From IMG/VR virus record IMGVR_UViG_3300045988_147856: a stretch of DNA of 64,000 nt, one strand, 5' to 3'. This document shows positions 5,178-61,896 of this stretch, piece after piece. The translations under genes and the position numbers were made by a program. The notes under the pieces were generated by a model. The model was not told the DNA's origin and searched no databases. It saw only the letters and a list, made by a program, of their open reading frames with translations. Source of the stretch: a virus. Position 1 is the stretch's first letter. Every line of letters starts with the position of its first letter.

Positions 5178-5974
5178 CTCGCATTATTCCAAGTAAACTT
5201 TACCGACGACACACCGCCGGTAACAGAGATGATATTCTCGCCCGGAACAAGCCTCAAGAAATGCTGATTGATAAGCTTGTTGTAATACTCGGCATTGGCG
5301 TCATTCACAATCGTTCCTATAGCACAATCGGCGTACAACACAGCCTTTGCCGTTGCATCTTTAATCTGCATAGCACGGTTGTTATCGCTTTTGTTCGTTA
5401 TAGTCACATCCGCTTTTGTGTTGCCGCAGGTGATAACAAGATATGGATAGACGTAATCCTGTATGTCCGTATCAACATTAAGCGTTATATCCGAGCTGAA
5501 AGAGGTGGCTGTGACCTCCACTTTTTCCTGTATAGCCATTGTGGATGAGCACATACAAGTACAACGCCAGCCGACAGTACCCTCGGCGTATTCAATTTTC
5601 TCAGGGTTACAGAATACGCACTCAAGATATTGTCTTTTTATTGTACCGTTCACATACTCGGCTTCTTTGTCGTCCTCGGGGTCTATATAGAGCTCTTTGA
5701 AGGTAGGGGAGTTGAAGAGCCAATTCTTTATAGCTCGCTCATGTACAGAGCAATACCCCTCTTCGCCGATTATCTCGACCTCGAACTCAAGCGGAGCGCT
5801 CTCGCGGGAGACTCCTGTAATATATCTTTTATTCTGCGCAGGAAAGAACGACGACGAGTATTCCACAGAACCCTCCGCCGAAGCAAGCCCGTCTGTATCA
5901 ATTCGCAGAATTGAAAGATTATAACGCGACGAGTTAACTCCGTCATAAATGAACCTATTTCCTAACAGATAAAT
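5165..5974 (-). CDS. Distal tail protein (Dit-like)
   Basis: Sipho-tail-like sequence (FIYDGVNSSRYNLSILRIDTDGL...). Best start is the in-frame ATT (5974-5972), 9 nt after SD GAAAGGGG. The track ATG at 6130 would add ~50 implausible residues across a divergent promoter. Confidence 0.6.
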   Translation of the reverse strand: MYLLGNRFIYDGVNSSRYNLSILRIDTDGLASAEGSVEYSSSFFPAQNKRYITGVSRESAPLEFEVEIIGEEGYCSVHERAIKNWLFNSPTFKELYIDPEDDKEAEYVNGTIKRQYLECVFCNPEKIEYAEGTVGWRCTCMCSSTMAIQEKVEVTATSFSSDITLNVDTDIQDYVYPYLVITCGNTKADVTITNKSDNNRAMQIKDATAKAVLYADCAIGTIVNDANAEYYNKLINQHFLRLVPGENIISVTGGVSSVKFTWNNARWMT

Positions 5975-6044
5975 ATTGACTCGCCCCTTTCTAAAATAAT
6001 AAAATCCGCGTACAGTTTTGATTATTTGTACGCAGATTTTTGTA

Positions 6045-6072
6045 TTGAAAAATATATTTGTTGTGGTATAAT
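6045..6072 (+). promoter_or_regulatory. Sigma-70-type promoter with extended -10
   Basis: TTGAAA, 16-nt spacer, then TGgTATAAT, about 30 nt upstream of the 6105 gene. Confidence 0.6.
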
Positions 6073-6104
6073 TGTTTATGAAAAATAAAGTTGGAGGAAT
6101 AGTT

Positions 6105-6350
6105 GTGGCTAAAATATGCGGAGAGCACACTTGTTCTCAATGTGGAACTGTGATTGCTTGGGAGTATCATATTCCTAATAAATTATCAAGCGGTCAGTGT
6201 GAGATAGAAGATATTATTTTTTCTAAATACCACCCATTTAGAATTAACAGTATCTCGTCAAGCACAATCGCCCTACGAGTTACCTGCTCAAATTGCGGTC
6301 AGTCCGACGAATTTATTTGCAACTCTTACAATTCTCGCAACGCGAAATAA
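6105..6350 (+). CDS. Small CxxC zinc-ribbon protein (moron)
   Basis: GTG start 6 nt after SD TTGGAGGAA. Contains CSQCG ... CSNCG pairs. Confidence 0.5.
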   Translation: MAKICGEHTCSQCGTVIAWEYHIPNKLSSGQCEIEDIIFSKYHPFRINSISSSTIALRVTCSNCGQSDEFICNSYNSRNAK

Positions 6351-6558
6351 GTGATTTTAAGCATATCCAATCAAGCTTCTTAAGATGCTTACAGTAAAGA
6401 TCGCCTGCGTATATTTTTATTGACAACATACGGTAAGGACAGATATATAAGAAGCAATCCTCCTCCGTAATATATTTTCTATTGCATAAAAACTCTTTCT
6501 GACATTTAGTCAGCTTTTGCCTACGTTTGTTCATTCCTTTTGTTCCTTTCGTTTTCAA
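6313..6558 (-). CDS. Small basic Cys-rich protein, candidate toxin partner of the Panacea-domain gene
   Basis: 81-aa ORF whose ATG overlaps the stop of 6555..7061 (ATGA-type coupling). No recognisable domain. Its 3' end overlaps the convergent 6105 gene. Confidence 0.4.
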   Translation of the reverse strand: MKTKGTKGMNKRRQKLTKCQKEFLCNRKYITEEDCFLYICPYRMLSIKIYAGDLYCKHLKKLDWICLKSLISRCENCKSCK

Positions 6559-7061
6559 TCGGCGTCCTCAAATTCATCATAGTACATATCCCACACATAA
6601 TCGTATGGGCGAACCTTTTTCGCATCAGCTCGTATGTCGTCGAGTGATAATGGAACACCGTCGCCTTTATCGCCATCCAATCTTTTATGGGCATTTTGCC
6701 AAGACGTTTCACGATAAAGCATTTCACTTAGCTTCCATGACTCCAAAGAGCCATATTCCTGAATAACATTATTGACTACATACTTAGCTGTATCTGAAAT
6801 ACGGGCATTGCCGTCGGTCAACCCGCAGTTAGACAAAAAGCCTTGAATCTCGCAACGCGCAGCTTCGCACCAAAGATTTTCGCCGAACATGGGGAGACCG
6901 GTAATAGCAATGGATTCTCTTTGCACAAAATATAAGAGCTTTTGAAGTTTTTCGTCTTCTATGTTGTTGTGCGAAACTCTTTTGTACTCTTTATGAATAT
7001 ACCGAGCTATATCAACAACCTTCTCCATTCTATCCGTCCTTTCATCGTCTTTCGACGGCAA
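6555..7061 (-). CDS. DUF4065/Panacea-domain (SocA/GepA-like) putative antitoxin
   Basis: LQKLLYFVQRESIAITGLPMFGE matches the KLQKLLYxxQ...PLFxE signature I recall for this family. Confidence 0.6.
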   Translation of the reverse strand: MPSKDDERTDRMEKVVDIARYIHKEYKRVSHNNIEDEKLQKLLYFVQRESIAITGLPMFGENLWCEAARCEIQGFLSNCGLTDGNARISDTAKYVVNNVIQEYGSLESWKLSEMLYRETSWQNAHKRLDGDKGDGVPLSLDDIRADAKKVRPYDYVWDMYYDEFEDAD

Positions 7062-32168: not shown

Positions 32169-32482
32169 GTATTGCAGGACTCGGGCGGATATCGCTTGCA
32201 TAATACCCGCCCAAAGTTCTGCTTAAGGAGGAATGAAATTTTGAAGCCGCTTGCAAGCAGCCGACAAAATGGAGTTGTCTAATTGAACCGCCCATATGGG
32301 CGGTATTTGTAAAACTAAGGAAACGTCGTAACGCTTCCTATACAAAGGCGAATGAGCCTTTTGATAACCTAAGTTAAAATCCAAGTCACGTCTTTTCGTC
32401 AGCCATCGTTTTACCGTCCGCAAACTTGTGCGCCCGATTCGTCCCGGAACGCCCGATACTTAACTTCTCGCGCTTGGATTTT

Positions 32483-32557
32483 TGGAGCATCCTGCGTGAC
32501 TCGAACACGCAACCCGCTGCTTACAAGGCAGCCGCTCTACCATTGAGCCAAGGATGC
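32483..32557 (-). tRNA. tRNA-Thr (anticodon UGU)
   Basis: Perfect cloverleaf: acceptor GCATCCT/AGGATGC, D-stem GCTC/GAGC, anticodon stem GCTGC/GCAGC with loop CTTGTAA, T-arm GCGTG-TTCGAGT-CACGC, CCA end. Confidence 0.9.
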
Positions 32558-32666
32558 ATATACTCGGATTTGATATCGCTGGGACACATCATAGAGAGGT
32601 GCGGATAGTCTGACGTACCGAGCTTGTGGCGCAACCCCACACGTCCCCGCTGTACACACGGGATAT

Positions 32667-32742
32667 TGGTTGCGGAGGCGGGACTTGAACCCACGACCTT
32701 TAGGGCATGAACCTAATGAGCTACCAACTGCTCCACTCCGCT
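32667..32742 (-). tRNA. tRNA-Met-like (anticodon CAU) with initiator-type backbone
   Basis: AGCGGAG-TG-GAGC-AGTTGGTA-GCTC-A-TTAGG-TTCATGC-CCTAA-AGGTC-GTGGG-TTCAAGT-CCCGC-CTCCGCA-A-CCA. Shows a 1:72 mismatch, A11:U24 and A73. Confidence 0.8.
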
Positions 32743-32766
32743 ATATAAAACAACAGCAAGCAAACC

Positions 32767-32785
32767 GTCTAACAATTGTCTAACA
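32767..32785 (+). repeat. Integrase arm-type site pair (GTCTAACA x2)
   Basis: GTCTAACAattGTCTAACA lies left of the att core. The same motif recurs right of the core. Confidence 0.55.
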
Positions 32786-32908
32786 CCATTATTATTTAGC
32801 GATTTTTCGCACCATGCGAACCGTTTATTAATTGCGTTATATAGGTAAAATCACGGCTTTACACTGCATGGAATCGAATGACACTGTTTGATATTCGCGT
32901 CACAACCA

Positions 32909-33023: not shown

Positions 33024-33043
33024 GTCTAACGTTTTGTCTAACA
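33024..33043 (+). repeat. Integrase arm-type site pair (GTCTAAC x2)
   Basis: GTCTAACgttttGTCTAACA, overlapping the int stop. Confidence 0.55.
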
Positions 33044-34192
33044 CGCCTGAGCTAAAGTTTCGCGAATAATTTCAGAGGTCATCTTTTTCCTCGACAAATC
33101 AAGGTGTCCATATATATTACAAGTCATCTTTATATCGGCGTGACCCATCCAATCTTGGACGTCCTTGAGTGAACAACCTTTGGCGAGAAGAAGGCTCGCA
33201 CAACTATGTCTTAGATCGTGGAATCTTATATGCGGGAGATTATATTTTCTCAATAGGTCTCCGAATTTGTGCGATATATATGACGGGTCATACATTGCGC
33301 CATTCGCCCATTTGAAGATATAATCATTCTCCACATAGGTGTCTCCAAAGAACTCTCTGTTCTTCTGTTCCTCTTCTTTGAGCTGAAGCAGTAGCTCTCT
33401 AATTTCAGGAAACAGCGGAAACGACCGATAACTTGATTTGTTTTTGGTTTTGTCTTTCTCGACAACCTTGGTTGACATAGAGACCGTGTGGCGTATAAGG
33501 ATAGTATTTGTGTCAAAATCAATGCTTTGCCACTGTAGACCCAAAACCTCACTGCGCCGCAGTCCATACATGACTGTAGTTTGGATGAGCGGATGCAAAG
33601 GTTCGTCCTTTATGGTCTCAAGCAGAGTGTTAATTTCACTGGCGTTATACCACTCATACTCCCGTCTCTCAAGTTTTGGGAGTCTCACGAGTTCACAAGG
33701 ATTTGTACTTATCAGCCTGTGTCGCATAGCCTCCTTAAAGGCAAGCTGAAGAACATTCTTGTGCAGACGAAGGGTTTTAGGTGATAGACCGCCATTCCCA
33801 TCTTTTCTGCCGTGGGTCGCCTTATAGTCAAAATATTGCTGTATATTGTCAAGGTTGGCATCCACTAATTTTATTTTGTGTTCCTCAAAATACGGTTGAA
33901 CATGAGAATCAACTATAACCTTATAACCGTCCCAAGTTACAGTATCTATAAACGGCTTAGTCTCCGTGAGCCACTGGTCTAAGTAGTCCGAGATAAGTAT
34001 ATTGGGTTCATAAATCAGCTGAGCACTTTCATACTCGCTAATTATTGACCGCATAGCCGCCTCAGCTTTACGCAGATTATTCTTTACTTCATAACCTGTG
34101 TAAACCCACTTCTGCTTACGCTTTCCAGTGTTGTCTACGAAATTCAGAACGGCATAATATTTGCCGCGTTTTGCTTGCAAGCTTCCTGTCAA
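33038..34192 (-). CDS. int: Tyrosine integrase
   Basis: TTG start 8 nt after AAAGGAGA. HDLRHSCASLLLAKG and GHADIKMTCNIYGH catalytic boxes, plus an N-terminal SAM-like arm-binding region. Confidence 0.9.
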   Translation of the reverse strand: MTGSLQAKRGKYYAVLNFVDNTGKRKQKWVYTGYEVKNNLRKAEAAMRSIISEYESAQLIYEPNILISDYLDQWLTETKPFIDTVTWDGYKVIVDSHVQPYFEEHKIKLVDANLDNIQQYFDYKATHGRKDGNGGLSPKTLRLHKNVLQLAFKEAMRHRLISTNPCELVRLPKLERREYEWYNASEINTLLETIKDEPLHPLIQTTVMYGLRRSEVLGLQWQSIDFDTNTILIRHTVSMSTKVVEKDKTKNKSSYRSFPLFPEIRELLLQLKEEEQKNREFFGDTYVENDYIFKWANGAMYDPSYISHKFGDLLRKYNLPHIRFHDLRHSCASLLLAKGCSLKDVQDWMGHADIKMTCNIYGHLDLSRKKMTSEIIRETLAQAC

Positions 34193-36488: not shown

Positions 36489-36668
36489 TCACCTCCACGG
36501 TTCGTGGCGAAGCTTCTTTAGGTAGCGCATCACCTTAAAGCCCTCGGTGCAGTAGTATGTTTTCTTTCGACTGGGAGCGTAGCGGTTCGTTACCGTTATA
36601 TGCGTTCCGGGAAACTTCTTTCTAATCTTAAAAGCTTCCTCCTGCGAGATTTTAACTATATAAACCAT
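36489..36668 (-). CDS. 59-aa basic protein
   Basis: ATG after AAAAGGAA; its stop overlaps the next start. Under the track cutoff. Confidence 0.5.
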   Translation of the reverse strand: MVYIVKISQEEAFKIRKKFPGTHITVTNRYAPSRKKTYYCTEGFKVMRYLKKLRHEPWR

Positions 36669-36835: not shown

Positions 36836-39517
36836 TTACGCGAAATATTTATATCGAGTGTATCTCTTTCCATATAGCTCAACATCACCCTCGTCGTCTT
36901 CTGCGAGCAGTCCGATAGGTTCTGCACCCGCTTCGAGAACCTCGTAGAACGAGGTGTTGGGGTAGCCAAAGAGTATGTTAAATATCTTACGCTGAATCTG
37001 AGAATAACGAGATTCTTCTATCTGGCGCAGGAGGTAGACCATATCGCTCTTGGTGAACGACATATTGCCCACATATTCTACGCACTCCTGCCTAATATCG
37101 CAACACTGCATCTGTTTTACGGAAGATTCTATGTCCGAGGCATATACACTCTTTATCTCATTTGTCATGTCTGTTACGGCATTGATGACGCGGGTGACTT
37201 TCTCGTACTGTCTACGATGAACATCTATGCCATTACCCACAAGAGCGGAGAAGGGGAGGTACTCCTGCTTCTTTCCTATCTCTTCTCTCTGAGCCCTGTA
37301 CGAATTAATACAAGTCTGCACATGATCCATGGTCGTCAAATGCTTCTTGTAATTCTTTCGCTTGCGGTCATAGTAACCTTTGCCGATATCCTTCGCCTTG
37401 AAGAAGTTGGGTTTAATGGCTCTTCCGTCATCGCCCTCAATCTTATATTTATCACGCAGTCGGCGAAGCTCCTTAGCATTATTGATATTGAACTCTTTCT
37501 TTGCTTTGTCGATTTCAATGCCGCTCATAATATTCAAGATACATACATCTTTATATATTTCCTTAATATCACTATAACTGCCACCACGATTGAGGACATC
37601 CCATATGCGGGTATTGAGCTCCTGACTGAGGTTGATGATATCGCCTATAAGATTGTTGCTCGTTTTAACATCAAGGTCAACCTGCTCGTCGTGAGTGTAT
37701 CTGCGTTTTTTCTTAACGGACGAGACATCCGGAACCGCTATCAAAAACTTACCTTCGTTCTTAAGTGCAGCATTGATAAGGTGAAGATTATCCGTAACAA
37801 GCGAGGTATCTGAATCAAAATCGCAACCCGATAATTCGTTTAAGACATTTTCACCAATACTGTTTATACAGACTATCTCGTTCGTCAGATTAAAGTAGCG
37901 GTCGATCTCGCTACACTCCACATTCGTCGGAACCCACACATTGCTCATTGAGATATGGGGGCTGCGCGAACCTACGAGCCTCTGCCCGTACCCGAACCTC
38001 TTCGTATGTATGTTGCCAACACCCAGCACCGACACGCCGTCGAACTTGCCGATGCTCGCCTGTAACATCTCGATTGGATTGCCAAACAAGGTTTCGTAAT
38101 TGCCCTCGACAAGCACATGACCGAGCCTAAGATTTTTTGTAAAAGACTTAAGAATATCTATCTTGAAGTCATGATAAAGCTTCGTCTGCGCAAATCTGTC
38201 ATTGAGACCGAGAAGCTTGTATACAACATCATTCTTCGACTCAGCAGGGGAGATGTCGAATTCGTCTTCTATCGGATATTTGATATGGTAGCGCAGAACT
38301 GCGGGGTCTGTTCTGATAGCTGTCATATAGTCAAATGTCTCCTTGAGGAACGCCGCCGTCTCAGCCTTGTCCATCTGCAAGCTGTTGAGAAGCTGATAGT
38401 GCGTCTGCACCATACGCCCGTCAAAAAAGTGAGTCGGCTTATCATACTTAACAACGCCAAAAGTATTGTCGATGTGCTTCATCCAATCGTTTATCGTCCC
38501 GAACTTCAGATACTTGATGCTGCTCGGCGTGGTTACTATCTTTATATCTTCCACACGCTTCGCTTTAGTGTAGCCCTTTAGCTGGCTCACCTCTGTTATG
38601 CCGTGGTCGGCAAACCACTGCTGCAAGTTTGTATTGAAGCAACAGCATTTAAAGAAGAGGTTGCGGAGTAGTATCATGCCCTTATCGCTGTATTTGCCCA
38701 TAGCTGATATATCTATAAGCCCCTGTCCGTCCCAGATAGAGTTGGTTATCTGCTCGTCTTTTTCTTCGGCGATTAGGTGGTCGCCATCTTCGCTGACAGA
38801 CATAACCCTATCGAAGAATTTGCTCTCGTAGTCGTCTATCACGAGAATGTTCTCGGGGTTTATTTCCAGTATATCAATAATAGAGCTTGACGGCAGAGAG
38901 ATATATGACTCAAGCGCAGCAAGGTCTACCTCTTCACCCTCGGCGACTTTCAGTCCACACATCTCCCACTTGTGCATACGAGCATACAGCTTCTCGTCAA
39001 TAAAGAGACACTTGCCAACGCGAGAACTGCCGCTTGACCTCTTCCACCTGACATACCTTACTCCATTACACACAAAGCCGTCATTATACAGTGTCCTGCG
39101 CAGCTCCGCTGTGCTCTTCAGCGTCTTAGGTGTTTTGATAAGCGTGTATACGCCACCTTCAAAACCGAAGTATTTACCGAGCACCTCGTCAGATACCGGA
39201 TATTCCACAGGCTGTCCAAGTATTATTCCCACCAGCTCGCCGTCTTTTATAGCCACGCAGTCATTGAAGTTAAGGTCTGAGTCTTTATATCCAAAGCGAA
39301 TATACCTATTTCTACCGGCTTTATTAAACTCCGCCACCGAGTATTTAAAGGTTACATTTATTACACGCGAGGTATACTCTTTCTTTCTTCCGTAAAAGCT
39401 GAAGTTAGTGCGGCGGTACACTTTCTCATAAACCTCGCGCAGTTTTATCTGATCTAAACTGTAATCGAGTGTGTTGGCATATCGTCTATAATTGACCTTG
39501 CCGTCTTTATCCACCAA
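36836..39517 (-). CDS. YonO / RdRP-like single-subunit two-barrel RNA polymerase
   Basis: GSRSPHISMSNV followed ~45 aa later by LSGCDFDSD parallels the (K/R)xPxxH...SGxDxDGD catalytic arrangement of YonO and eukaryotic RdRPs. The frame is open to a possible ATA start at 39601. Confidence 0.6.
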   Translation of the reverse strand: MVDKDGKVNYRRYANTLDYSLDQIKLREVYEKVYRRTNFSFYGRKKEYTSRVINVTFKYSVAEFNKAGRNRYIRFGYKDSDLNFNDCVAIKDGELVGIILGQPVEYPVSDEVLGKYFGFEGGVYTLIKTPKTLKSTAELRRTLYNDGFVCNGVRYVRWKRSSGSSRVGKCLFIDEKLYARMHKWEMCGLKVAEGEEVDLAALESYISLPSSSIIDILEINPENILVIDDYESKFFDRVMSVSEDGDHLIAEEKDEQITNSIWDGQGLIDISAMGKYSDKGMILLRNLFFKCCCFNTNLQQWFADHGITEVSQLKGYTKAKRVEDIKIVTTPSSIKYLKFGTINDWMKHIDNTFGVVKYDKPTHFFDGRMVQTHYQLLNSLQMDKAETAAFLKETFDYMTAIRTDPAVLRYHIKYPIEDEFDISPAESKNDVVYKLLGLNDRFAQTKLYHDFKIDILKSFTKNLRLGHVLVEGNYETLFGNPIEMLQASIGKFDGVSVLGVGNIHTKRFGYGQRLVGSRSPHISMSNVWVPTNVECSEIDRYFNLTNEIVCINSIGENVLNELSGCDFDSDTSLVTDNLHLINAALKNEGKFLIAVPDVSSVKKKRRYTHDEQVDLDVKTSNNLIGDIINLSQELNTRIWDVLNRGGSYSDIKEIYKDVCILNIMSGIEIDKAKKEFNINNAKELRRLRDKYKIEGDDGRAIKPNFFKAKDIGKGYYDRKRKNYKKHLTTMDHVQTCINSYRAQREEIGKKQEYLPFSALVGNGIDVHRRQYEKVTRVINAVTDMTNEIKSVYASDIESSVKQMQCCDIRQECVEYVGNMSFTKSDMVYLLRQIEESRYSQIQRKIFNILFGYPNTSFYEVLEAGAEPIGLLAEDDEGDVELYGKRYTRYKYFA

Positions 39518-41699: not shown

Positions 41700-42002
41700 T
41701 CACTTCTCTGCTCTGTACTTCGCTAACGCCGCCACTGCTTTTTCTCTTTGTTCCTCAGAGACGCTTCGAGCGGCGTTCTTTCTTATAGTAACTGCGGAAG
41801 GGATAGCCTTTAGAATCATCCCGCACACAGTGCCGTCGTCATAAACCGTCTGCTCTACAGGCGTCCAACCCTTACGCAGCGCGGCATTGAAGTCTTTCGG
41901 AACGGTGCTGTCCATCACCCAGCCGTCACCACTTCTATATATGTGCGTCTCTCGCTCACTCACAGATATCTTACTCGTAATCGTCTTCGTCTTTATCGCC
42001 AT
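41700..42002 (-). CDS. Hypothetical protein
   Basis: 100-aa ORF overlapping the helicase-like gene's end. Confidence 0.5.
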   Translation of the reverse strand: MAIKTKTITSKISVSERETHIYRSGDGWVMDSTVPKDFNAALRKGWTPVEQTVYDDGTVCGMILKAIPSAVTIRKNAARSVSEEQREKAVAALAKYRAEK

Positions 42003-43233
42003 TCTGAATCCTCTCCATCCAATCTTTTAAAAGTGTCCTCATTCTTCTACTCGGCACATACAGCCATATCTCTTCCCCGCGTCTTATAGCTGATCTCCAT
42101 ATCCACTGCAACATAGTTGAAAGAGCGTACATATCTTGGTCTACCTCTACACCAAATTTCTCATACACACGCCTCTCCGCGACATTCATAAACAGGTTAA
42201 CGGCGTAGGCGAGATACCTCTTGTTGATATATGAGTTAGTAGCCCTCTCGTTGAAGACGACGTAACTCTTGGTGTAGCCTTTGCCCTTAACCTTGTTACA
42301 GGCGCTCTTATAGGTTCCCCACATACGCTCGTCCGCGGGTGAGTTCTTCCATATATGCTTGTAGCAGTTGGCTATATGATTCTTAACAGCCTTGAGCTCG
42401 CCATCCTCACCAGCCTTGCGTCTCTGATACCAATTCATAGACAGCGCATGGGGCGGGTCGCCTATACGGTTGAGCTTTGGCGACTCTATTATATGTATAA
42501 GGTCTTTGATGTGTTTGGTGTACTCCGGCACATAATCGGTATTATCCGAAAAGCGGTAGACCCCGTCCTTTAGCGACACACCTATATATGTATAGGGAAT
42601 TTTATTGGCTTTCACAAAATAGCAAAGGCTCTGCCCGCCGAACAGATAGGTCAGTATAAACACCTCATCAAACGAAGTAAGCAGTTCGGGTGACAGCGCC
42701 CAATAATAAAGCTTCTCCTTTGACCCATTGTTGAGGCTTATAATGCTATGAGAGCGAAGCATCTTCATTTCTTCGGAGAACTTGCCTTCGTCATACCATT
42801 TACCCGTCGGCAGATATACACCATTGTCATTCGTCAAAAATCCTGTAGCCTTGAGCATTTTTACGTCAATAGGCTTCAATTGGCTTTCAACAAGAACCTC
42901 TAAGCTCTCATCTATGATGAGGGTATACCCGAGTTCCTTTATCTTAGCCAAGGTCTCTCGGGAGTAGCTCTTGAAAGCCACATGAGTAGTGGTAATATTG
43001 CGCCCCTTTTCAACGAGAGCCGCCGTGTGCTCAGTTTTTCTAAAATGGTATTCCCCCAGCTTGTTGCTCGGTTCAACGAAGTGCAGCTCTGGGCACCCCT
43101 CTTTGATACGATTGCTCTCCGCCAGATACGGCGTTACATAAATAAATTTCTTTTCCTTGTGTTCGTTCATATAGGTAATGGCAGCTTCAGTTTTACCAGC
43201 ACCCATAATCGCGTCGCATACTTTAATACTAAT
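41971..43233 (-). CDS. P-loop ATPase / SF2 helicase-like protein
   Basis: Walker A AIMGAGKT straddles the track ATG, so the start must lie upstream. An in-frame ATT (43233-43231) sits 8 nt after AAAGGAGG. DESL Walker B. Confidence 0.7.
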   Translation of the reverse strand: MSIKVCDAIMGAGKTEAAITYMNEHKEKKFIYVTPYLAESNRIKEGCPELHFVEPSNKLGEYHFRKTEHTAALVEKGRNITTTHVAFKSYSRETLAKIKELGYTLIIDESLEVLVESQLKPIDVKMLKATGFLTNDNGVYLPTGKWYDEGKFSEEMKMLRSHSIISLNNGSKEKLYYWALSPELLTSFDEVFILTYLFGGQSLCYFVKANKIPYTYIGVSLKDGVYRFSDNTDYVPEYTKHIKDLIHIIESPKLNRIGDPPHALSMNWYQRRKAGEDGELKAVKNHIANCYKHIWKNSPADERMWGTYKSACNKVKGKGYTKSYVVFNERATNSYINKRYLAYAVNLFMNVAERRVYEKFGVEVDQDMYALSTMLQWIWRSAIRRGEEIWLYVPSRRMRTLLKDWMERIQNGDKDEDDYE

Positions 43234-43812
43234 AGTGTTTTCCTCCTTTGAGTTTTGTCGTTTTCTTTAATTGGAAACCAAAAGGTTCCGAGCTATCTCA
43301 CACCCCTTGTGTATCAAGGCATCTGAGCACCCCCTTGTTATAAAAACAATATATGTTATGTGAAGGTCACAAGTCCACTAACGTGTCCTTGCTCGCCACA
43401 TAATTCCGTCTACGGAGTAGGCGGGAGGCTACGCTATACCACCTCGGGAGAAGTTCTCTTCGCAAGCTTCGCTAACTTCTCTTCGGAGATACCGCTGACG
43501 CCTCCCTCAAACATCTCCGTAGGCGGGTGGAAGGCTTCGCCTTATTTCTAAAGGAAGACTGCATCCTCGGTTCGCTCCATCTTGAGGCGAACTCAGCAAG
43601 CCTTTAACTGCGCTGCGCTCCGTTTCCGTTCGCCTTATTAGTGTCGCTCACCTCGGATTTGCCTTGAAACGGCTTACGCCGTAGCCTGTACCACCATGTT
43701 ATGTATATACCTTACACCCGAGGTTAGCTGATTTACCAAAATCTGAAGGTTAAATTTATGAATAAATTATTAACAGAAGTAGAGGGTAGAAGCTTGGCGC
43801 GTAGCGATAAAC

Positions 43813-43841
43813 ATAAATAAAAAAACGCGCCCTTCGGCGCG
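43813..43841 (-). terminator. Intrinsic terminator (minus strand) inside the ORF-free region
   Basis: CGCGCC-GAAG-GGCGCG followed by TTTTTTTATTT on the minus strand. Confidence 0.65.
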
Positions 43842-44330
43842 TAAGACGATCGTACATATATAGAACTTGTAGAAGCTTTCTTCGAAGACGTCAGCCTGTA
43901 CATACCAACCCTGATGAGTCTATAGGCTTATACCACGGACGAAAGACCGCTCGTAAGGTAGACTTTAGGGATTTTAGCCTGTACCACATCTTTATCTCGG
44001 ATGCTCGTAGGGGTAACTTTGTGCGTAGAGCGGGCTTTTACCAGTTTTTTTAAAATTTTAAAAAGCACCAATCTACCTGACCCGTAGAAGATACCCTCCA
44101 CTATGGGCGGGATTTGTGTAGTTCTGAGGGTCTATTTTGACGACGTGTGAGTGGGGTTGATTGACTAAGCGGTTTTTCGCGATTATTTTTCTACTATAGG
44201 TTTAAAATAGCCCCCTTGCGGGGGATAATCCATAAAGGCATATTTTATGGATTATTATACCTATATAGTCGAGGTATACAAGCTATGATATTTTAGTGTT
44301 ATATAAGCATTATTTTTTGTTGTATTTACA

Positions 44331-44391
44331 ACGACAACGCCGTCTACACGTCAACGTCAACACTGCATAATATCACCGTCAACACGTCAAT
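44331..44391. repeat. Cluster of ACG(T/A)CAAC-type short direct repeats (iteron/operator-like)
   Basis: ACGACAAC, ACGTCAAC, CGTCAACA, CCGTCAACACGTCAAT all occur within 60 nt next to an AT-rich stretch. Confidence 0.55.
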
Positions 44392-44404
44392 TATGTCTAT
44401 AAAG

Positions 44405-44459
44405 CAAAATAAAAAAATACCTATACACCAAAAGATAAATTCCGATGTGTATAGGTATT
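44405..44459 (-). terminator. Intrinsic terminator of the XRE repressor gene
   Basis: 13-bp perfect stem AATACCTATACAC/GTGTATAGGTATT followed by TTTTTTTATTTT on the minus strand. Confidence 0.7.
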
Positions 44460-44587
44460 ATATTATATATTATATAGGTAGGTATATATGCCTATAATGC
44501 GCGTACCGTCTCACCGTCGGCGGGAGCGTCGCACGGCGTAGCCGTGCCCCGAAGACTTGCGCAAGCGTTATATGCTATTATAGAATA

Positions 44588-44941
44588 TTATATATCGTTG
44601 TCGGTACTGCTGCCGTTCGGCGGCAAGCGTAGAACGCCGCGTACATAGTCGGCGGATATCCCACGGGCGCGGGCTATGCACTCAACGGCGGCGTTAATGT
44701 CGGCGGCGGCGTTAGGCGGCGCGGGGCGGTTGAGCAGAGTATCTATAGATATATTTAAATAATCGCATATACGGGCGAGCGTGATATAGGACGGCGCGCC
44801 GCCGTGCGTCATTTTAGTTAAAGCGGCGTGATTGATGTTTAATTCTTGCAACATAGTTTTCACCGTGATATTTTGTCTCGTGCATTCTTTTTTAATCTTT
44901 TCTGCAATAATAGTGGGGTCATAATTGTTAGTATTGCACAA
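44588..44941 (-). CDS. XRE-family HTH repressor (CI-like)
   Basis: NITVKTMLQELNINHAALTKMTHGGAPSYITLARICDYLNISIDTLL is an XRE HTH. TTG start 9 nt after GGAG. Confidence 0.8.
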   Translation of the reverse strand: MCNTNNYDPTIIAEKIKKECTRQNITVKTMLQELNINHAALTKMTHGGAPSYITLARICDYLNISIDTLLNRPAPPNAAADINAAVECIARARGISADYVRGVLRLPPNGSSTDNDI

Positions 44942-45856
44942 GTTAATCAGCTCCGTTGCGTAGATTTATTGTGTATATGTTACAAAGATGTGTAAAATCT
45001 CTAAAAAGTTCATTATTTTTCTTTTTCGAGTATAACAATGCACTTTTTGGTGCTATACTATGGGCGTACTCGAGAGAGACCCACGGACAAGCCGCCGACG
45101 ATGAGCCGCTGAGCCACGCGGACAAGGCGCGCGGGGTATCTTGTAAAGTACAGTCATCCGAATATACACCATTATATAATAGGGGGGGGTAAAAGTCAAG
45201 CGCGGTCAATCGGCTTATTTTATAGGCGGAATGATACGCGACAAACGGAATACATAAATATTATTGTATGCCCTTGCAATACTTTGATGTTGCTATCACG
45301 CTATGACGGCTTTATAGCTATCAGCCCGGGGCGGCGCGTGCCGTGACGCGCTTATCGTATGCGATAATATTGTAAAATATCGGTAACGGCGGCGGGACAC
45401 TCTCAACCGTTACCATGCCGCATAGGGGCGCTATGCGGGGCGAATAAAGGCATTTTATCACAAGTCCGTAAAAGGTCAAAGAAATAACTGCCATTTAAGC
45501 GGGTGCATTATCTGTTTAAATACTTTGATTTTGTTGTGCTAAGGTGGAGAGTCCGGGGACGGTTGAAAGCCGTCCGAACCTTTTGAGTTCCTTTTGCCGT
45601 TGGTGTTTGATATATACGCGATAAGTATATCGGCAATAAGAAAAAAATAAACCGTGCATTAATGCTATATTGATATTTTAGCTTTACACCGCCCGCGCTA
45701 TTTCTCAGGAAATACGAACAACGGACGGTAATTTTTATTCTTAGGAATAAATATTTATTGTAAAGCGGGGATATTAATGTTTCATTATTGGAAAATGCAC
45801 GGCGACGGGCAACAATTGATACGTTGGTACAATAGGACATTTTAACACATTTCGAG

Positions 45857-45888
45857 CGCGTGAGCTGTTATATGTTCACGCGTTTTTT
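45857..45888 (+). terminator. Intrinsic terminator (plus strand) ending the ORF-poor segment
   Basis: CGCGTGA-12 nt-TCACGCG followed by TTTTTT. Confidence 0.65.
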
Positions 45889-45892
45889 AATA

Positions 45893-45901
45893 TGCTAAAA
45901 T
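45893..45901 (+). promoter_or_regulatory. Extended -10 element of the rightward early promoter
   Basis: TGcTAAAAT, 36 nt upstream of the 45938 ATG. No good -35 element. Confidence 0.5.
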
Positions 45902-45937
45902 GCATATAAAAATTTTAAATAAGGACGGTAAAAAATC

Positions 45938-46840
45938 ATGAAAAAGACAACAGAAAAGAAAGCATTACGGAATATTGCGGATATCAGAGCAGATCTTGAA
46001 ACACGCGCCAACGCCTACAACGCGGCAATAAATGCCGATGATACAAAGGCGGCAGAGCTCGAAAAGCTCGACAATGAAACATCAGAGCTTGAAAAAGAGT
46101 ACACCCGCGCCGCGTTTCATGCAACGGCTCTTGAACTGCTCGATAGCCCCGCGCCCATGCTTGCGGCGGCAACAGCTCTAACTTTCGAGACGCTGAAACA
46201 CAAAGACAAAGAGGATGAAAACGGCATAAAGTCGCGCGAACTCGTCACGGCTGAACGCCCGCTTGACTTTGTCGCGCTTGAATCATTCTTTGTCGAGCGC
46301 GGAAAGAAATTCGGCGCGGAATCTGCGTGGATTTACAAAGTCGCGGCTTTTAATCGTTTGCTCTGCATGAGAACGGCGCAAAGTATCGGCGCGGATGTGA
46401 AAACAGTCGCGGAGAAGTTCGCTACACCTACACAAGCCCGCGATATCAATCTCGGCAAAACGCCGACAAGCAACACGCAACTGCTCAAGCAGTTACAGAT
46501 GATAATTGACTCTATGCTTTATGTAGAGGGCGAAAAGGGCAATGTCTATAAAGCAAATTCGCACGATGTCGGTTATCTGTTGTCCCTCTACGCAAAGAAA
46601 GGGCACGGCGTTCTGAGTGTTGCGGCGGCTCGCCCGAAGTATCTTGAAAAGCTTATCGCTGAAATACTTCACCGCATAGTTACCGAAAAGTCCTATAATA
46701 TCGAGTTCAAGGAAAAGAAAGACCGCGCAAGCGGCAAGATAGATCCTAAACCCGCCGGGGCTGTTGAATCCGCGAGAAAATCCGCGAAAAAATCGAGTGC
46801 AAAGGCTCAGACAAAGGCAAAGGCAACAAAAGCGGCATAA
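45938..46840 (+). CDS. Ala-rich protein with Lys/Ala-rich histone-like C-terminal tail
   Basis: 300-aa ORF with SD AAGGACGG. Visibly higher GC than its neighbours. Tail KKSSAKAQTKAKATKAA. Confidence 0.7.
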   Translation: MKKTTEKKALRNIADIRADLETRANAYNAAINADDTKAAELEKLDNETSELEKEYTRAAFHATALELLDSPAPMLAAATALTFETLKHKDKEDENGIKSRELVTAERPLDFVALESFFVERGKKFGAESAWIYKVAAFNRLLCMRTAQSIGADVKTVAEKFATPTQARDINLGKTPTSNTQLLKQLQMIIDSMLYVEGEKGNVYKANSHDVGYLLSLYAKKGHGVLSVAAARPKYLEKLIAEILHRIVTEKSYNIEFKEKKDRASGKIDPKPAGAVESARKSAKKSSAKAQTKAKATKAA

Positions 46841-58249: not shown

Positions 58250-59389
58250 ATGAAAATTATAAAAGCATTAAAAATGCGAATCTATCCAAACAAAGAACAG
58301 GCTTTAAAAATTGACAAAACCATTGGCTCATGCCGATATGTTTACAACCACATGCTTGCTCGTAATAATAAGATATATGCACGTCGTAATGAACACTTAT
58401 CGTATTATGACATGCAGAACCTTTTACCGCACATGAAGGAATATCTTCCGTGGCTGAAGGAGTCGGATTCACAGGCTTTGAAGTATGCCTGCCGTCAGGT
58501 CAATAAAGCCTTTGATGGGTTCTTTAAGAAGAGAACCAATTTTCCAAAGTTCCACAGCAAACGAACAAGCAGACAGTCCTACACGACTACAAATAAAGCC
58601 TATATTGACTACAATCCTGATGAAAGAAAGGTAAGACTGCCATTCCTTGGATGGATGTGCTGCTCAGACAATCGTATTCTAAAAGACTGCACTTTCAAGC
58701 AGGCTACGGTATCAAAAAAGAATGGCAGGTATTATGTTTCTATTACGTACAGCATTGAAAAAAATGTAGTTCCTGTGCCTGTGAGTGAAAACCAAGCTCT
58801 AGGTCTGGACTACAAATCAGATGGACTGTATGTAGATAGCGAAAGTAATGCACCTGATACGCCGCACTGGTTTCGACTGGCTCAAAGCAAGCTGAAGAAA
58901 GAGCAGCGAAAGCTTAGAAACAAAGTTGGCTCTAAAAAGGGAGAGCCAAAGTCTCATAACTATTCAAAGCAGCTTCAAAAGGTTCAAAACCTTTATGAAC
59001 ATATTGCCAATCAACGTTTGGACTATCTTCATAAAGAGAGTACAAGACTAGCAGATCAGTATGATGCTATTCTGATTGAAGACTTGAACATGAAGGCTAT
59101 TGCCAACAAAGGCTTCGGCAACGGCAAAGCCACTCTTGATAACGGATGGGGCATGTTTGTAACCATGCTTGACTATAAGCTGAAAGAACGTGGCAAATGC
59201 CTACAAAAAGTAGACAAATGGTATCCATCCTCACAGACCTGCAGTGTCTGTGGATGTATGAATGAAGATGTAAAAGATTTGAGTATTCGAAAATGGATAT
59301 GTCCACACTGTGGTGCAGAGCATGATCGAGATATCAATGCTGCTATCAATATCAAGCAGGAAGGCCTGCGGTTACTAGAAGTAATTTAA
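58250..59389 (+). CDS. tnpB: TnpB (IS200/IS605-family OrfB, RNA-guided nuclease)
   Basis: N-terminal LKMRIYPNKEQ signature, a RuvC-like core, and a C-terminal zinc finger CSVCGC...CPHCG. Confidence 0.9.
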   Translation: MKIIKALKMRIYPNKEQALKIDKTIGSCRYVYNHMLARNNKIYARRNEHLSYYDMQNLLPHMKEYLPWLKESDSQALKYACRQVNKAFDGFFKKRTNFPKFHSKRTSRQSYTTTNKAYIDYNPDERKVRLPFLGWMCCSDNRILKDCTFKQATVSKKNGRYYVSITYSIEKNVVPVPVSENQALGLDYKSDGLYVDSESNAPDTPHWFRLAQSKLKKEQRKLRNKVGSKKGEPKSHNYSKQLQKVQNLYEHIANQRLDYLHKESTRLADQYDAILIEDLNMKAIANKGFGNGKATLDNGWGMFVTMLDYKLKERGKCLQKVDKWYPSSQTCSVCGCMNEDVKDLSIRKWICPHCGAEHDRDINAAINIKQEGLRLLEVI

Positions 59390-60580: not shown

Positions 60581-60955
60581 ATGGGATTTTTGGGTTCATT
60601 TCTTGGTCTGATTGGTGCTTCGGCGGTGTTTGTTGGAGCCGATGTTAAAGAGCGTTGGGACGAAATAGATAGAGAGCGGCAGCGCATTGCGGCAAATCCC
60701 GCACCGCCTCCGGAGATGAGGGGAAATTTAAGAGATAAATATGAATCTGAATGGCACAGAGGCGATAACACTCATTTCCCGGAAGAATATCTTCCTGCTC
60801 TTGAGAGCGATCCAGAGGTACTTTACTGGTGGATTGAGCTTCTTGCAGAGCGTGAGATAAGGCGTCAGGGTTATCGCGGTTATCCTATCAGTATTCAGGG
60901 CAATTTCAATCGAGTGTATAATGCTTGGAAGGAGCGTCAGAATTGGGTCAGATAA
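60581..60955 (+). CDS. Membrane-anchored protein
   Basis: ATG after GAAAGGAGAA; N-terminal TM segment GFLGSFLGLIGASAVFVGA. Confidence 0.55.
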   Translation: MGFLGSFLGLIGASAVFVGADVKERWDEIDRERQRIAANPAPPPEMRGNLRDKYESEWHRGDNTHFPEEYLPALESDPEVLYWWIELLAEREIRRQGYRGYPISIQGNFNRVYNAWKERQNWVR

Positions 60956-61896
60956 CCAGTGTCGATGTTAATAAAGACATACTTATTGATAGTCTGAAAG
61001 CCCAGAACGCAAGACTAAAAAAGCTCCTCCGCGAAACAGCAGAAGAGCGAGACAGATATAAATCCTTGTGGGAAACAAATCGGATTCAAAATGAATTTTC
61101 AGAAAAGGAGCGAAAAGCAAATCGGCGATTAGAACAAGAGAAAAAGCAAGAGCGGCTGTTGTCCGGTGTAAAATCGGATGGCGTTCCGGTAGCTCATGCG
61201 GCGGATTCGATTCGTTCCTATGATGAAATGTGTGTTGTACTGGATAAGCTCAAAAACACAGGACGAATGGGAATACGAAACTGGGCTATGTTCCGTTGCG
61301 GCATTTGCTTCGGTCTTAGAGCAAGCGACCTCGTTAAATTAAAATGGGGTTGGATCATGGACGACGACGGCGAGTTCAGAGACCGTATACCCGTAGTCGA
61401 GAGCAAGACATCTAAAATCAATCGGTGTTTCATTTCAGATGCGATAAAGGAAACGCTTACAGAATATCGCAAGTGGCTCGGCGGACGCAACTGTTCTCCC
61501 GATGATTACATCTTCTCGAAGAACAACGGCGGGAGACTACAGGAGCAAAGCTATTCACGATATCTCAAAAGCGCGGGAAAGGAAGCGGGGTTGCCGATAC
61601 ACATCTCGTCTCACACCATGAGGAAATCATTTGCCAATATAGTGCTGTGTTGTCATGACGGCGGTGCGAATGATTATGCTATGAGAGACTTACAGGGTAT
61701 GCTCGGACATTCAGATGTAAGAATTACGATGAGCTACCTCAAAGACACAATCCTCAGATACGACGAAGCGAGAAAGGCGGTGTCAGATTTCGTCCTCGGA
61801 AAGACAGATATAAACGAGCTGGTTACTTCAAAACAGGTCTCCAATAATGAAATTTACGAGCTTTGCAAAGAAATGTTTGAAAAACAAGTTGCGTAA
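60943..61896 (+). CDS. Second tyrosine recombinase
   Basis: TTG after GGAAGGAG. HTMRKSFANIVL and LGHSDVRITMSYLK catalytic boxes. Confidence 0.8.
   Translation: MGQITSVDVNKDILIDSLKAQNARLKKLLRETAEERDRYKSLWETNRIQNEFSEKERKANRRLEQEKKQERLLSGVKSDGVPVAHAADSIRSYDEMCVVLDKLKNTGRMGIRNWAMFRCGICFGLRASDLVKLKWGWIMDDDGEFRDRIPVVESKTSKINRCFISDAIKETLTEYRKWLGGRNCSPDDYIFSKNNGGRLQEQSYSRYLKSAGKEAGLPIHISSHTMRKSFANIVLCCHDGGANDYAMRDLQGMLGHSDVRITMSYLKDTILRYDEARKAVSDFVLGKTDINELVTSKQVSNNEIYELCKEMFEKQVA

What the first reader, a model, noticed from the sequence alone, without database searches (positions are those of the whole stretch)
43260..43812. ~550-nt ORF-free segment with nested long-range helices upstream of the early-left operon
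In a genome that is otherwise tightly packed, this segment has no credible ORF. It folds into nested helices by hand: CTACGGAG (43410-17)/CTCCGTAG (43515-22) encloses GGGAGGC (43423-29)/GCCTCCC (43500-06). That in turn encloses a 10-bp stem, GGGAGAAGTT/AACTTCTCTT, whose two G.U pairs exist only on the plus strand. Further 3' lie mutually exclusive pairings of GGCGAAC (43585-91) with either GGTTCGC (43570-76) or GTTCGCC (43628-34), plus small hairpins (AAGGC/GCCTT, ACGGC-TTAC-GCCGT). This looks like a large structured RNA or a switch-like leader. Known large phage RNAs (ROOL, GOLLD) should be excluded first.
Basis: partly seen in the sequence, partly recalled or inferred. Interest (0 to 1): 0.65.

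Follow-up and report, generated by a model that had tools for sequence, protein, structure and literature searches.

The report
Conserved structured RNA before phage early operon
A roughly 310-base non-coding stretch in a gut prophage folds into three long hairpins that evolution has kept paired, most likely as an RNA read towards the phage's early replication and transcription genes; it matches no described RNA family and its function is unknown.

Summary
No ORF in window 43234-44587 (1.35 kb) is conserved, under the standard code or with a stop codon reassigned.

They are the middle one of three long imperfect hairpins:
- D1: 43665-43555
- D2: 43526-43406
- D3: 43403-43356
- a small invariant hairpin: 43543-43531

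Across 4-5 diverged lineages of the same ~93-kb SPbeta-like gut Firmicutes phage, 13 of 86 pairs carry changes on both sides. Partner shuffles give 6.5±1.5 (0/500 reach 13) and slid partners give 1-2. 98.9% of cells stay paired.

The folded strand is most likely the minus strand, the sense of the downstream YonV-like ATPase operon, not the plus strand. The consensus fold is -111 kcal/mol on minus (column-shuffle z about -9) against -81 on plus (z about -3). Three pairs cycle between G·U, A-U and G-C on minus only.

The proposed "switch" pairing is broken in three lineages. Rfam has no match, including ROOL, GOLLD and the intron models. The element is confined to a narrow phage clade.

My working reading is a cis-acting structured leader or ncRNA.

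The parts
43555..43665 (-). D1: long imperfect hairpin (about 30 pairs in several helices). The apical sequence GCGAACGGAAACGRAGCG is conserved in all lineages.
   Evidence: Consensus fold. Changes on both sides at 43657/43564, 43643/43578 and 43642/43579. G.U, A-U and G-C all occur at 43662/43558 and at 43634/43585. A tandem G.A/A.G in the window becomes two A-U pairs in L106 and L109.
43531..43543 (-). Small hairpin AAGGC-GAA-GCCUU between D1 and D2.
   Evidence: Five pairs, invariant in all 33 and all 16 sequences. It therefore gives no covariation information.
43406..43526 (-). D2: long imperfect hairpin of about 35 pairs.
   Evidence: Pair 43502/43427 is G-C, A-U or U-A in three lineages. 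Pair 43501/43428 changes G-C to A-U in L010, L011, L187 and L156. Pairs 43489/43439, 43488/43440 and 43467/43462 are compensated. The apical 8-bp stem 43481-43474/43455-43448 never varies.
43356..43403 (-). D3: hairpin with an 8-bp outer stem and an 8-bp inner stem, loop GUUA.
   Evidence: The inner stem exists as two alleles, CAAGGACAC..GUGGACUUG and CGGCACUGC..GCGGUGUCG, differing at 13 of 22 positions. Three pairs are compensated. Two A.C mismatches that would arise on plus are G.U on minus.
43812..43842 (-). Intrinsic terminator (ACGCGCC-GAAG-GGCGCGU followed by U7) that closes the upstream non-coding unit and marks the 5' side of the finding.
   Evidence: Found by the scan. It is present at the same place with altered but still paired stems in L109, L156 and L189.
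43707..43719 (-). Conserved motif GGGTGTAAGGTAT, containing a TAWGRT hexameric -10-like core, about 40 nt upstream of D1. Candidate promoter or binding site.
   Evidence: Seen by eye in the alignments. It is kept in the window, L156, L106/L109, L189 and also L108, which lacks D1-D3. No matching -35 element was found, so its function is inferred only.
43321..43377 (-). Two overlapping sigma-70-like candidates for a promoter next to the ATPase gene: TGGACT-18-TATATT (43377-43348) and TTGTTT-17-TCAGAT (43349-43321).
   Evidence: The first comes from the scan. The second I read; the block ATTGTTTTT...GGGGTGC is conserved, also in L108. Both are weak consensus matches.
43231..43249 (-). Shine-Dalgarno sequence AAAGGAGG (43249-43242) and probable ATT start (43233-43231) of the YonV-like ATPase. 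This is the true 3' limit of the non-coding region.
Evidence: Homologues start with xVKVCDAIMGxGK, upstream of the first ATG. Sequence read.

Best explanation
Window 43665 to 43356, read on the minus strand, encodes a conserved RNA element of about 310 nt. It consists of three long imperfect hairpins (D1, D2, D3) and one small hairpin.

Its position:
- Upstream (5') lies a conserved intrinsic terminator that insulates it from the repressor gene and from a neighbouring non-coding unit.
- Downstream (3') lie the ribosome-binding site and start of the early-left operon. That operon runs from the YonV-like ATPase through Bro/KilAC antirepressor genes to a distant YonO-like protein.

Shown: the base-paired architecture is under selection, and the minus strand fits much better than the plus strand.

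Inferred: the element is transcribed towards the operon, either from a non-consensus promoter near 43707-43719 or by read-through of the terminator. It then acts in cis as a structured leader that sets the stability, processing or translation of the early transcript. The repeated GCGNAG motifs may be protein-binding sites.
For: - Covariation: 11 of 91 pairs have changes on both sides against 2.6±1.4 in shuffles (0/500) and 0-1 with slid partners. With two more sequences added (L189, a new lineage, and L187), 13 of 86 against 6.5±1.5 (0/500) and 1-2 slid, with 98.9% of cells paired.
- Consensus fold energy on minus is -111.3 kcal/mol against -67.9±4.6 for column shuffles. On plus it is -80.7 against -61.4±6.0.
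- Single-sequence fold: minus -116.5 (z -3.3), plus -98.2 (z -1.6).
- Three pairs pass through G.U, A-U and G-C on minus. Twelve pairs move between Watson-Crick and G.U on minus; five move to A.C (counted; G.U and A.C tallies).
- No frame is conserved, because indel lengths are not multiples of three.
- A conserved terminator lies upstream on the same strand. The Shine-Dalgarno sequence and start lie about 105-125 nt downstream of D3.
- In L108 the same slot, between the same conserved flanking motifs, holds a different but also strongly folded segment (z -4.3).
Against:
- No sigma-70 consensus promoter lies between the terminator and D1 in any lineage.
- Promoter-like sites overlap or follow D3 (43377-43321). 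The main operon transcript could therefore start downstream of the element.
- No intrinsic terminator of note lies inside the operon, so processive antitermination has no obvious target.
- The element has no significant complementarity to the downstream transcript: the longest Watson-Crick run is 10, and the null gives 10.4.
- Most distant relatives of the ATPase gene have no long upstream gap and no match to the model. The element is therefore not required by that gene family.
- The covariation rests on only 4-5 lineages, and one D3 allele is shared between lineages by recombination.
- G.T wobbles also form in single-stranded DNA.
Confidence: 0.5

Rival explanations
1. A stand-alone non-coding RNA on the minus strand that acts in trans. 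It would have its own start near 43700 and an end at or after D3. Possible targets are host or phage RNA polymerase, an RNA-binding protein, or another RNA.
For: - The block behaves as a module. In L189 the non-coding region up to the inner stem of D3 (homology is lost within its outer stem) abuts host genes, including a T-box leader before pheS, instead of the ATPase gene.
- In L108 the block is swapped as a cassette.
- Promoter-like sites for the operon lie downstream of D3.
- GCGNAG occurs 6 times within 185 nt, against about 1 per kb on that strand of the window.
Against: - No canonical terminator follows D3. The U-run begins about 10-12 nt after the stem.
- No promoter is defined.
- No complementarity was found to the downstream transcript; the rest of the window was not searched.
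- L189 is a single 7-kb contig from a co-assembled MAG and could be a remnant or a chimera.
Confidence: 0.2
2. A replication element: either single-stranded DNA hairpins (a single-strand initiation or primosome-assembly signal) or a structured pre-primer RNA like ColE1 RNA II. It would serve an origin formed together with the AT-rich and iteron block at 44231-44587.
For: - It stands beside a helicase-like P-loop ATPase gene. About 0.6-1 kb away are an AT-rich stretch (GC 0.30-0.35) and repeated TTGACG motifs (note e1-3479570).
- Strand-specific hairpins with G.T wobbles are also expected for single-stranded DNA signals.
- Short direct repeats (CTTCGC, GTACAGGCT three times, GTAGAAGCTT) are typical of phage origins.
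Against: - Nothing ties the ATPase to origin binding. Its family (YonV_C) has no known function.
- Known single-strand initiation signals are much shorter than 110-120-nt hairpins (own knowledge).
- The location between a terminator and a ribosome-binding site fits a transcript better.
Confidence: 0.12
3. One reading: a plus-strand structured RNA or riboswitch-like switch, antisense to the operon.
For: - The plus strand also folds better than shuffles at alignment level (z about -3).
- It has two plus-only G.U pairs at the base of the 10-bp stem.
- A weak plus-strand terminator-like site lies at 43521-43542.
Against: - The minus strand is 30 kcal/mol more stable in the consensus fold.
- The G.U pairs that vary are minus-specific.
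- The alternative "switch" pairing is broken in three lineages.
- The only plus-strand promoter-like sites lie at 44161 and beyond and point away from the element.
Confidence: 0.06
4. No dedicated structural function: a regulatory DNA region of operators and promoters, whose inverted repeats fold by accident.
For: - Many short repeats and conserved motifs.
- No Rfam family matches.
- The clade is narrow and sequence diversity is small.
Against: - Thirteen compensated pairs, against 1-2 in slid controls.
- A D3 inner stem rewritten at 13 of 22 positions while staying fully paired. Neither is expected without selection on pairing.
Confidence: 0.07

Closest known systems
Structured leaders of phage early-left operons: the lambda PL-N leader with nutL and its RNase III hairpin, and HK022 putL/putR RNA (PMC9378689)
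   Same: Non-coding, folded RNA placed between the early regulatory region and the first early gene, in the sense of the operon, and acting in cis.
   Different: - No sequence or Rfam similarity.
- put is about 70 nt with two stem-loops; this element is about 310 nt with three hairpins of about 50-120 nt.
- No downstream terminators to override were found.
- The host is a Firmicute, and the promoter is undefined.
Leader-encoded immunity RNAs: P1/P7 c4 upstream of icd-ant, and P4 CI RNA (own knowledge)
   Same: A structured RNA in the leader of an operon that contains an antirepressor. Here Bro-N and KilAC genes lie at 41588-40800.
   Different: Those RNAs are 70-80 nt and pair with sites in their own transcript. 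No such complementarity was found here.
Large phage-associated ncRNAs ROOL and GOLLD (Rfam)
   Same: Long, highly structured RNA in prophages of Firmicutes, with unknown function.
   Different: No match even at E=10. Those RNAs are 550-800 nt with complex multi-stem junctions. This one is about 310 nt of serial hairpins.
The unannotated non-coding RNA downstream of the YonO promoter in SPbeta (PMC5467207)
   Same: An SPbeta-like phage module (YonV homologue at 38.7% identity; distant YonO-like protein) with an uncharacterised ncRNA at the head of an operon.
   Different: In SPbeta the ncRNA heads the late operon (yonK...), not the yonV operon. The phi3T yonV upstream region is organised differently. 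No sequence comparison with the SPbeta ncRNA was possible.
ColE1 RNA II/RNA I, and single-strand origins (sso, ssi) of plasmids and phages (own knowledge)
   Same: Several strand-specific stem-loops in a non-coding region close to replication functions.
   Different: There is no evidence of an origin here, no antisense promoter, and the hairpins are much longer.

Membership tests
Any Rfam 15 family (including ROOL, GOLLD, HEARO, OLE, group I/II introns, 6S, phage pRNA, T-box, EAR) | Covariance-model score at or above the family's gathering threshold | tested here: not met
   The whole window at gathering thresholds gives only three tRNAs. Scanning 43000-46100 at E up to 10 gives only noise; the best is PhotoRC-I at 19.1 bits against a threshold of 45. 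Homologues L189, L108 and L109 at E up to 1 give only the host T-box.
Structured RNA in general | Base pairs kept through compensatory substitutions, beyond what controls give | tested here: met
   11 against 2.6±1.4 and 13 against 6.5±1.5. No shuffle out of 500 reaches the observed value. Slid controls give 0-2.
Structured RNA in general | The region is transcribed on the proposed strand | not testable with these tools
The strand is inferred from fold energy and G.U asymmetry.
Riboswitch or RNA switch | Conserved mutually exclusive pairings | tested here: not met
   The alternative pairing 43571-76 with 43586-91 is broken by two uncompensated changes in L106, L109 and L189.
put-like processive antitermination element | Lies downstream of an early promoter, with terminators further downstream in the same operon | tested here: inconclusive
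   No promoter is defined upstream. There is no credible minus-strand terminator between 43206 and 35000, apart from a weak site inside an ORF.
Leader antisense immunity RNA (c4 or CI type) | Complementarity between the RNA and sites in its own transcript | tested here: not met
   The longest Watson-Crick run is 10 nt. Shuffled elements give a mean of 10.4 and a maximum of 13.
   ORFs are 63 aa or shorter. Recoding TAG or TGA does not rescue a frame; TAA=Q opens frames up to 209 aa, each needing 4-5 read-through stops. Indels of 1, 2, 5, 8 and 10 nt occur in L106, L109, L156 and L189.

The most novel reading that the evidence does not exclude
D1-D3 is a stand-alone large ncRNA of a new family, specific to SPbeta-like gut phages that may carry a YonO-type single-subunit RNA polymerase. 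It would work in trans, or as a replication pre-primer in the manner of ColE1 RNA II. One trans-acting possibility is a 6S-like decoy made of long bubbled hairpins that diverts host RNA polymerase while the phage enzyme takes over. Non-homologous but equally structured cassettes occupying the same slot in L108 would then represent alternative specificities.
Probability: 0.1. Interest if true: 0.7.

Novelty: new member of a known kind. Interest (0 to 1): 0.42.

Why it matters
Phage-encoded structured RNAs are under-catalogued. This one has real covariation support, matches no Rfam family, and sits at the head of the early operon that carries a distant YonO-like protein, a candidate phage RNA polymerase.

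If it controls that operon, it would be a new cis-regulatory RNA type in temperate phages of gut Clostridia, which are otherwise barely studied at the RNA level.

Its value is limited by three things: the clade is narrow (one phage species group), it is absent from more distant YonV-encoding phages, and there is no transcript evidence at all.

Tried and rejected
1. Ultraconservation. 43300-44160 is about 99% identical in 24 IMG/VR relatives while the flanks are 78-90%. Rejected as a signal: genome-wide identity to G001 is 97-98%, and it is the flanks that are mosaic.
2. Alternative genetic codes. TAG or TGA as sense give no convincing ORF; TAA=Q opens longer frames that each need 4-5 read-through stops.
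3. Remote homologues.
   - nhmmer and covariance model R1 find nothing upstream of 56 YonV-like genes at 45-55% identity.
   - 301 genomes of the order of G002 give only G002 itself.
   - A further IMG/VR pattern scan returned only the near group.
4. GenBank phages by DNA similarity: no match.
6. Structure in 43660-44200: the count of pairs changed on both sides does not exceed column shuffles on either strand.
7. Antisense pairing of the element with the start regions of operon genes or with the whole downstream transcript: nothing beyond chance. One duplexfold outlier near 36500 was not backed by any contiguous complementarity.
8. GTACAGGCT as a genome-wide promoter motif: it is only a local triplet.
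9. attP at D3, suggested by the L189 host junction. In G002/L187 the phage is collinear across this point. The close relatives' contigs end beside the tyrosine integrase near 33 kb.

Full report
**Context.** The window is part of a phage or prophage of about 93 kb.
- Genes run leftwards (minus strand) up to 43206 and rightwards from 45938.
- The nearest held record, G001, is 93,258 bp and 97-98% identical over most of the window.
- Relatives come from human-gut metagenomes. One sits in a 303-kb contig of a bacterial MAG, so the phage is temperate.
- The strong Shine-Dalgarno sequences, a Lachnospiraceae-labelled ATPase homologue and a Clostridium-labelled MAG contig point to a Clostridia host.
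- The gene just left of the finding (41971-43206, minus) is a P-loop ATPase of the YonV_C family, 38.7% identical to yonV of SPbeta and phi3T.
- The same operon carries Bro-N and KilAC antirepressor genes. It also carries an 893-aa protein with weak similarity to the phi3T YonO homologue: 26% over 135 aa, pairwise E = 6e-7 (lead).
- To the right lie a Cro/CI-type HTH gene (44588-44941, minus) and a further 1 kb of non-coding DNA.

**The observation.**
- 43260-43812 has no ORF longer than 63 aa. Reading TAG or TGA as sense does not help; TAA=Q opens longer frames, each needing 4-5 read-through stops.
- The ORF-free stretch really runs from the ATPase start to 44587. That start is probably ATT at 43233-43231, behind AAAGGAGG.
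They appear in the minimum-free-energy folds.
- Rfam gives nothing. At gathering thresholds it finds only three tRNAs elsewhere in the window. At E up to 10 over 43000-46100 it finds only noise. Homologous loci give nothing either. ROOL, GOLLD and the intron families are therefore excluded.

**A false lead.** In 24 IMG/VR relatives, 43300-44160 is about 99% identical while the neighbouring ATPase DNA is only 78-90%. A genome-wide profile shows that 97-99% is the baseline. The 5' half of the ATPase gene and 44200-45900 are the mosaic, diverged patches. The block is therefore not ultraconserved. These near-identical relatives carry little covariation information.

**Diverged homologues.**
- Protein look-ups and pattern scans yielded four further lineages: L106 and L109 (ATPase 80% and 78% identical), L156, and L189.
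- The first three share 71-77% DNA identity with the window over 43300-44200. L189 matches at 68-78%.
- L187 is a prophage copy in a bacterial MAG.
- L108 (ATPase 71%) keeps the flanks. It replaces window 43360-44025 with about 300 nt of different sequence that also folds strongly (z -4.3).
- Relatives with about 50% ATPase identity mostly have another gene 17-130 nt upstream. They show no similarity by nhmmer or by a covariance model of D2+D3.
- 301 genomes of the order of the MAG that carries L187 contain no other copy.
- The element therefore belongs to a narrow phage clade.

**Structure and covariation.** The RNAalifold consensus for the minus strand of 43345-43665 has four parts:

| Part | Coordinates |
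|---|---|
| D1 | 43665-43555 |
| small hairpin | 43543-43531 |
| D3 | 43403-43356 |

Counts on this structure:

| Alignment | Pairs changed on both sides | Partner shuffles | Slid partners | Cells paired |
|---|---|---|---|---|
| 33 distinct sequences | 11 of 91 | 2.6±1.4 (0/500 reach 11) | 0-1 | 99.3% |
| 16 representatives including L189 and L187 | 13 of 86 | 6.5±1.5 (0/500 reach 13) | 1-2 | 98.9% |

- Striking cases: pair 43502/43427 is G-C, A-U or U-A in three lineages. The inner stem of D3 exists as two alleles that differ at 13 of 22 positions, yet both are fully paired.
- Indels in the diverged lineages are 1, 2, 5, 8 and 10 nt long, so no reading frame is conserved.
- The rest of the non-coding region (43660-44200) shows no covariation above column shuffles.

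**Which strand folds.**

| Measure | Minus strand | Plus strand |
|---|---|---|
| Consensus fold energy (kcal/mol) | -111.3 | -80.7 |
| Column-shuffle null (kcal/mol) | -67.9±4.6 (z about -9) | -61.4±6.0 (z about -3) |
| Single-sequence fold (kcal/mol) | -116.5 (z -3.3) | -98.2 (z -1.6) |

- Three pairs (43662/43558, 43634/43585, 43392/43369) occur as G.U, A-U and G-C on minus. On plus, the majority state would be an A.C mismatch.
- The two A.C mismatches that the alternative D3 allele would have on plus are G.U on minus.
- Twelve pairs move between Watson-Crick and G.U on minus, against five that move to A.C (counted; G.U and A.C tallies).
- I conclude, at about 0.7, that the folded strand is minus, the sense of the ATPase operon. 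Single-stranded DNA of that strand would fit the same data.

**The proposed switch.** GGCGAAC (43585-91) with GTTCGCC (43628-34) is kept in all lineages. The alternative partner at 43570-76 carries two uncompensated changes in L106, L109 and L189. It belongs instead to a D1 helix that is itself compensated. The ACGGC-TTAC-GCCGT hairpin is absent from three lineages.

**Surroundings on the minus strand.**
- Two hairpins followed by a U-run (44255-44205) follow the HTH gene.
- Next comes a conserved unit (about 44200-43812). It has a promoter-like GGGTCA-17-TAAAAT near 44083-44050, kept in L109 and L189. It ends at a strong terminator, 43842-43825 plus U7. That terminator is present with altered but still paired stems in L109, L156 and L189.
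- Between this terminator and D1 there is no sigma-70 consensus promoter in any lineage. The motif GGGTGTAWGRTAT (43719-43707) is kept in every lineage, including L108.
- Two weak promoter-like sites lie at or after D3 (43377-43321).
- So I cannot say whether D1-D3 is part of the operon's messenger, a read-through product, or a separate RNA.

**Mechanism tests.**
- No credible intrinsic terminator lies inside the operon. A put-like antiterminator therefore has no obvious target.
- The element has no complementarity to the downstream transcript beyond chance. This argues against a c4- or CI-type leader antisense RNA.
- GCGNAG occurs six times within 185 nt of the element, against about one per kb on that strand of the window. 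This could mark protein-binding sites.

**An unexplained relative.** In L189 the whole non-coding region, up to the inner stem of D3, is followed by host genes, including a T-box leader and pheS, instead of the ATPase gene. In G002/L187 the phage is collinear across this point. The close relatives' contigs end next to a tyrosine integrase near 33 kb. L189 may therefore be a remnant, a different integration arrangement or a chimera. Like the L108 cassette swap, it suggests that the block behaves as a module.

**Verdict.** A real, conserved, highly structured non-coding element of about 310 nt. It is most likely an RNA of the minus strand at the head of the early-left operon.
- Best reading: a cis-acting structured leader (0.5).
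- Rivals: a stand-alone ncRNA (0.2), a replication signal or pre-primer (0.12), a plus-strand RNA (0.06), no structural function (0.07).

It is a new candidate RNA family of a familiar general kind.

Noticed in passing
window 43812-44200 (minus strand): A second conserved non-coding unit. It has a promoter-like GGGTCA-17-TAAAAT near 44083-44050, kept in L109 and L189. It ends at the strong terminator 43842-43812, which would give an sRNA of about 230 nt. Invariant complementary blocks ACCGCTC (43945-51) and GAGCGGG (44027-33) are present. Covariation is not above shuffles.
   Followed up: partly
L189:1-1300 and 1600-6970: A Clostridium-labelled MAG contig carries the phage non-coding region up to D3, then host genes: an ADP-ribosylglycohydrolase-like gene, a histidine phosphatase, a TtcA-like gene, and a T-box leader before pheS. 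It could be a prophage junction, a remnant or a chimera.
   Followed up: partly
L108:290-680: In the lineage with 71% ATPase identity, D1-D3 is replaced between conserved flanking motifs by a different segment of about 300 nt. That segment folds with z -4.3 and shares only short motifs (AGCGAAG, GCGTAG, GTACAGG).
   Followed up: partly
window 43336-43353: A small hypervariable patch with three or four distinct alleles among otherwise 98-99% identical relatives. It lies right after D3 and overlaps the candidate -10 and -35 elements of a proximal promoter.
   Followed up: no
window 42000-43200 and 44200-45900: These are mosaic patches. The 5' half of the ATPase gene and the repressor/switch region are 75-90% identical to G001, or not alignable, while the rest of the genome is 97-99%.
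   Followed up: partly
window 44331-44391: Four or five copies of (G)TTGACG on the minus strand, next to an AT-rich block (GC about 0.30). This is an operator or origin candidate beside the HTH gene.
   Followed up: no
window 43231-43249: The YonV-like ATPase must start upstream of its first ATG, because its Walker A motif straddles that ATG. The only candidate is ATT at 43233-43231, 8 nt after AAAGGAGG.
   Followed up: partly
window 36836-39517 (minus strand): The 893-aa protein has only weak pairwise similarity to the phi3T YonO homologue (26% over 135 aa, E = 6e-7). It has no Pfam hit. Its PHROG family (8308) has no assigned function.
   Followed up: partly
window 58250-59389, 33038-34192 and 60925-61896: A TnpB/IS605 OrfB-like gene (Cas12f1-like TNB domain) and two tyrosine recombinase genes. 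The one at 33038-34192 lies next to three tRNA genes, where the relatives' contigs end.
   Followed up: no
window 32238-32908 compared with G001: The window carries about 670 nt, including tRNA-Thr and tRNA-Met, that G001 lacks at its contig ends.
   Followed up: no
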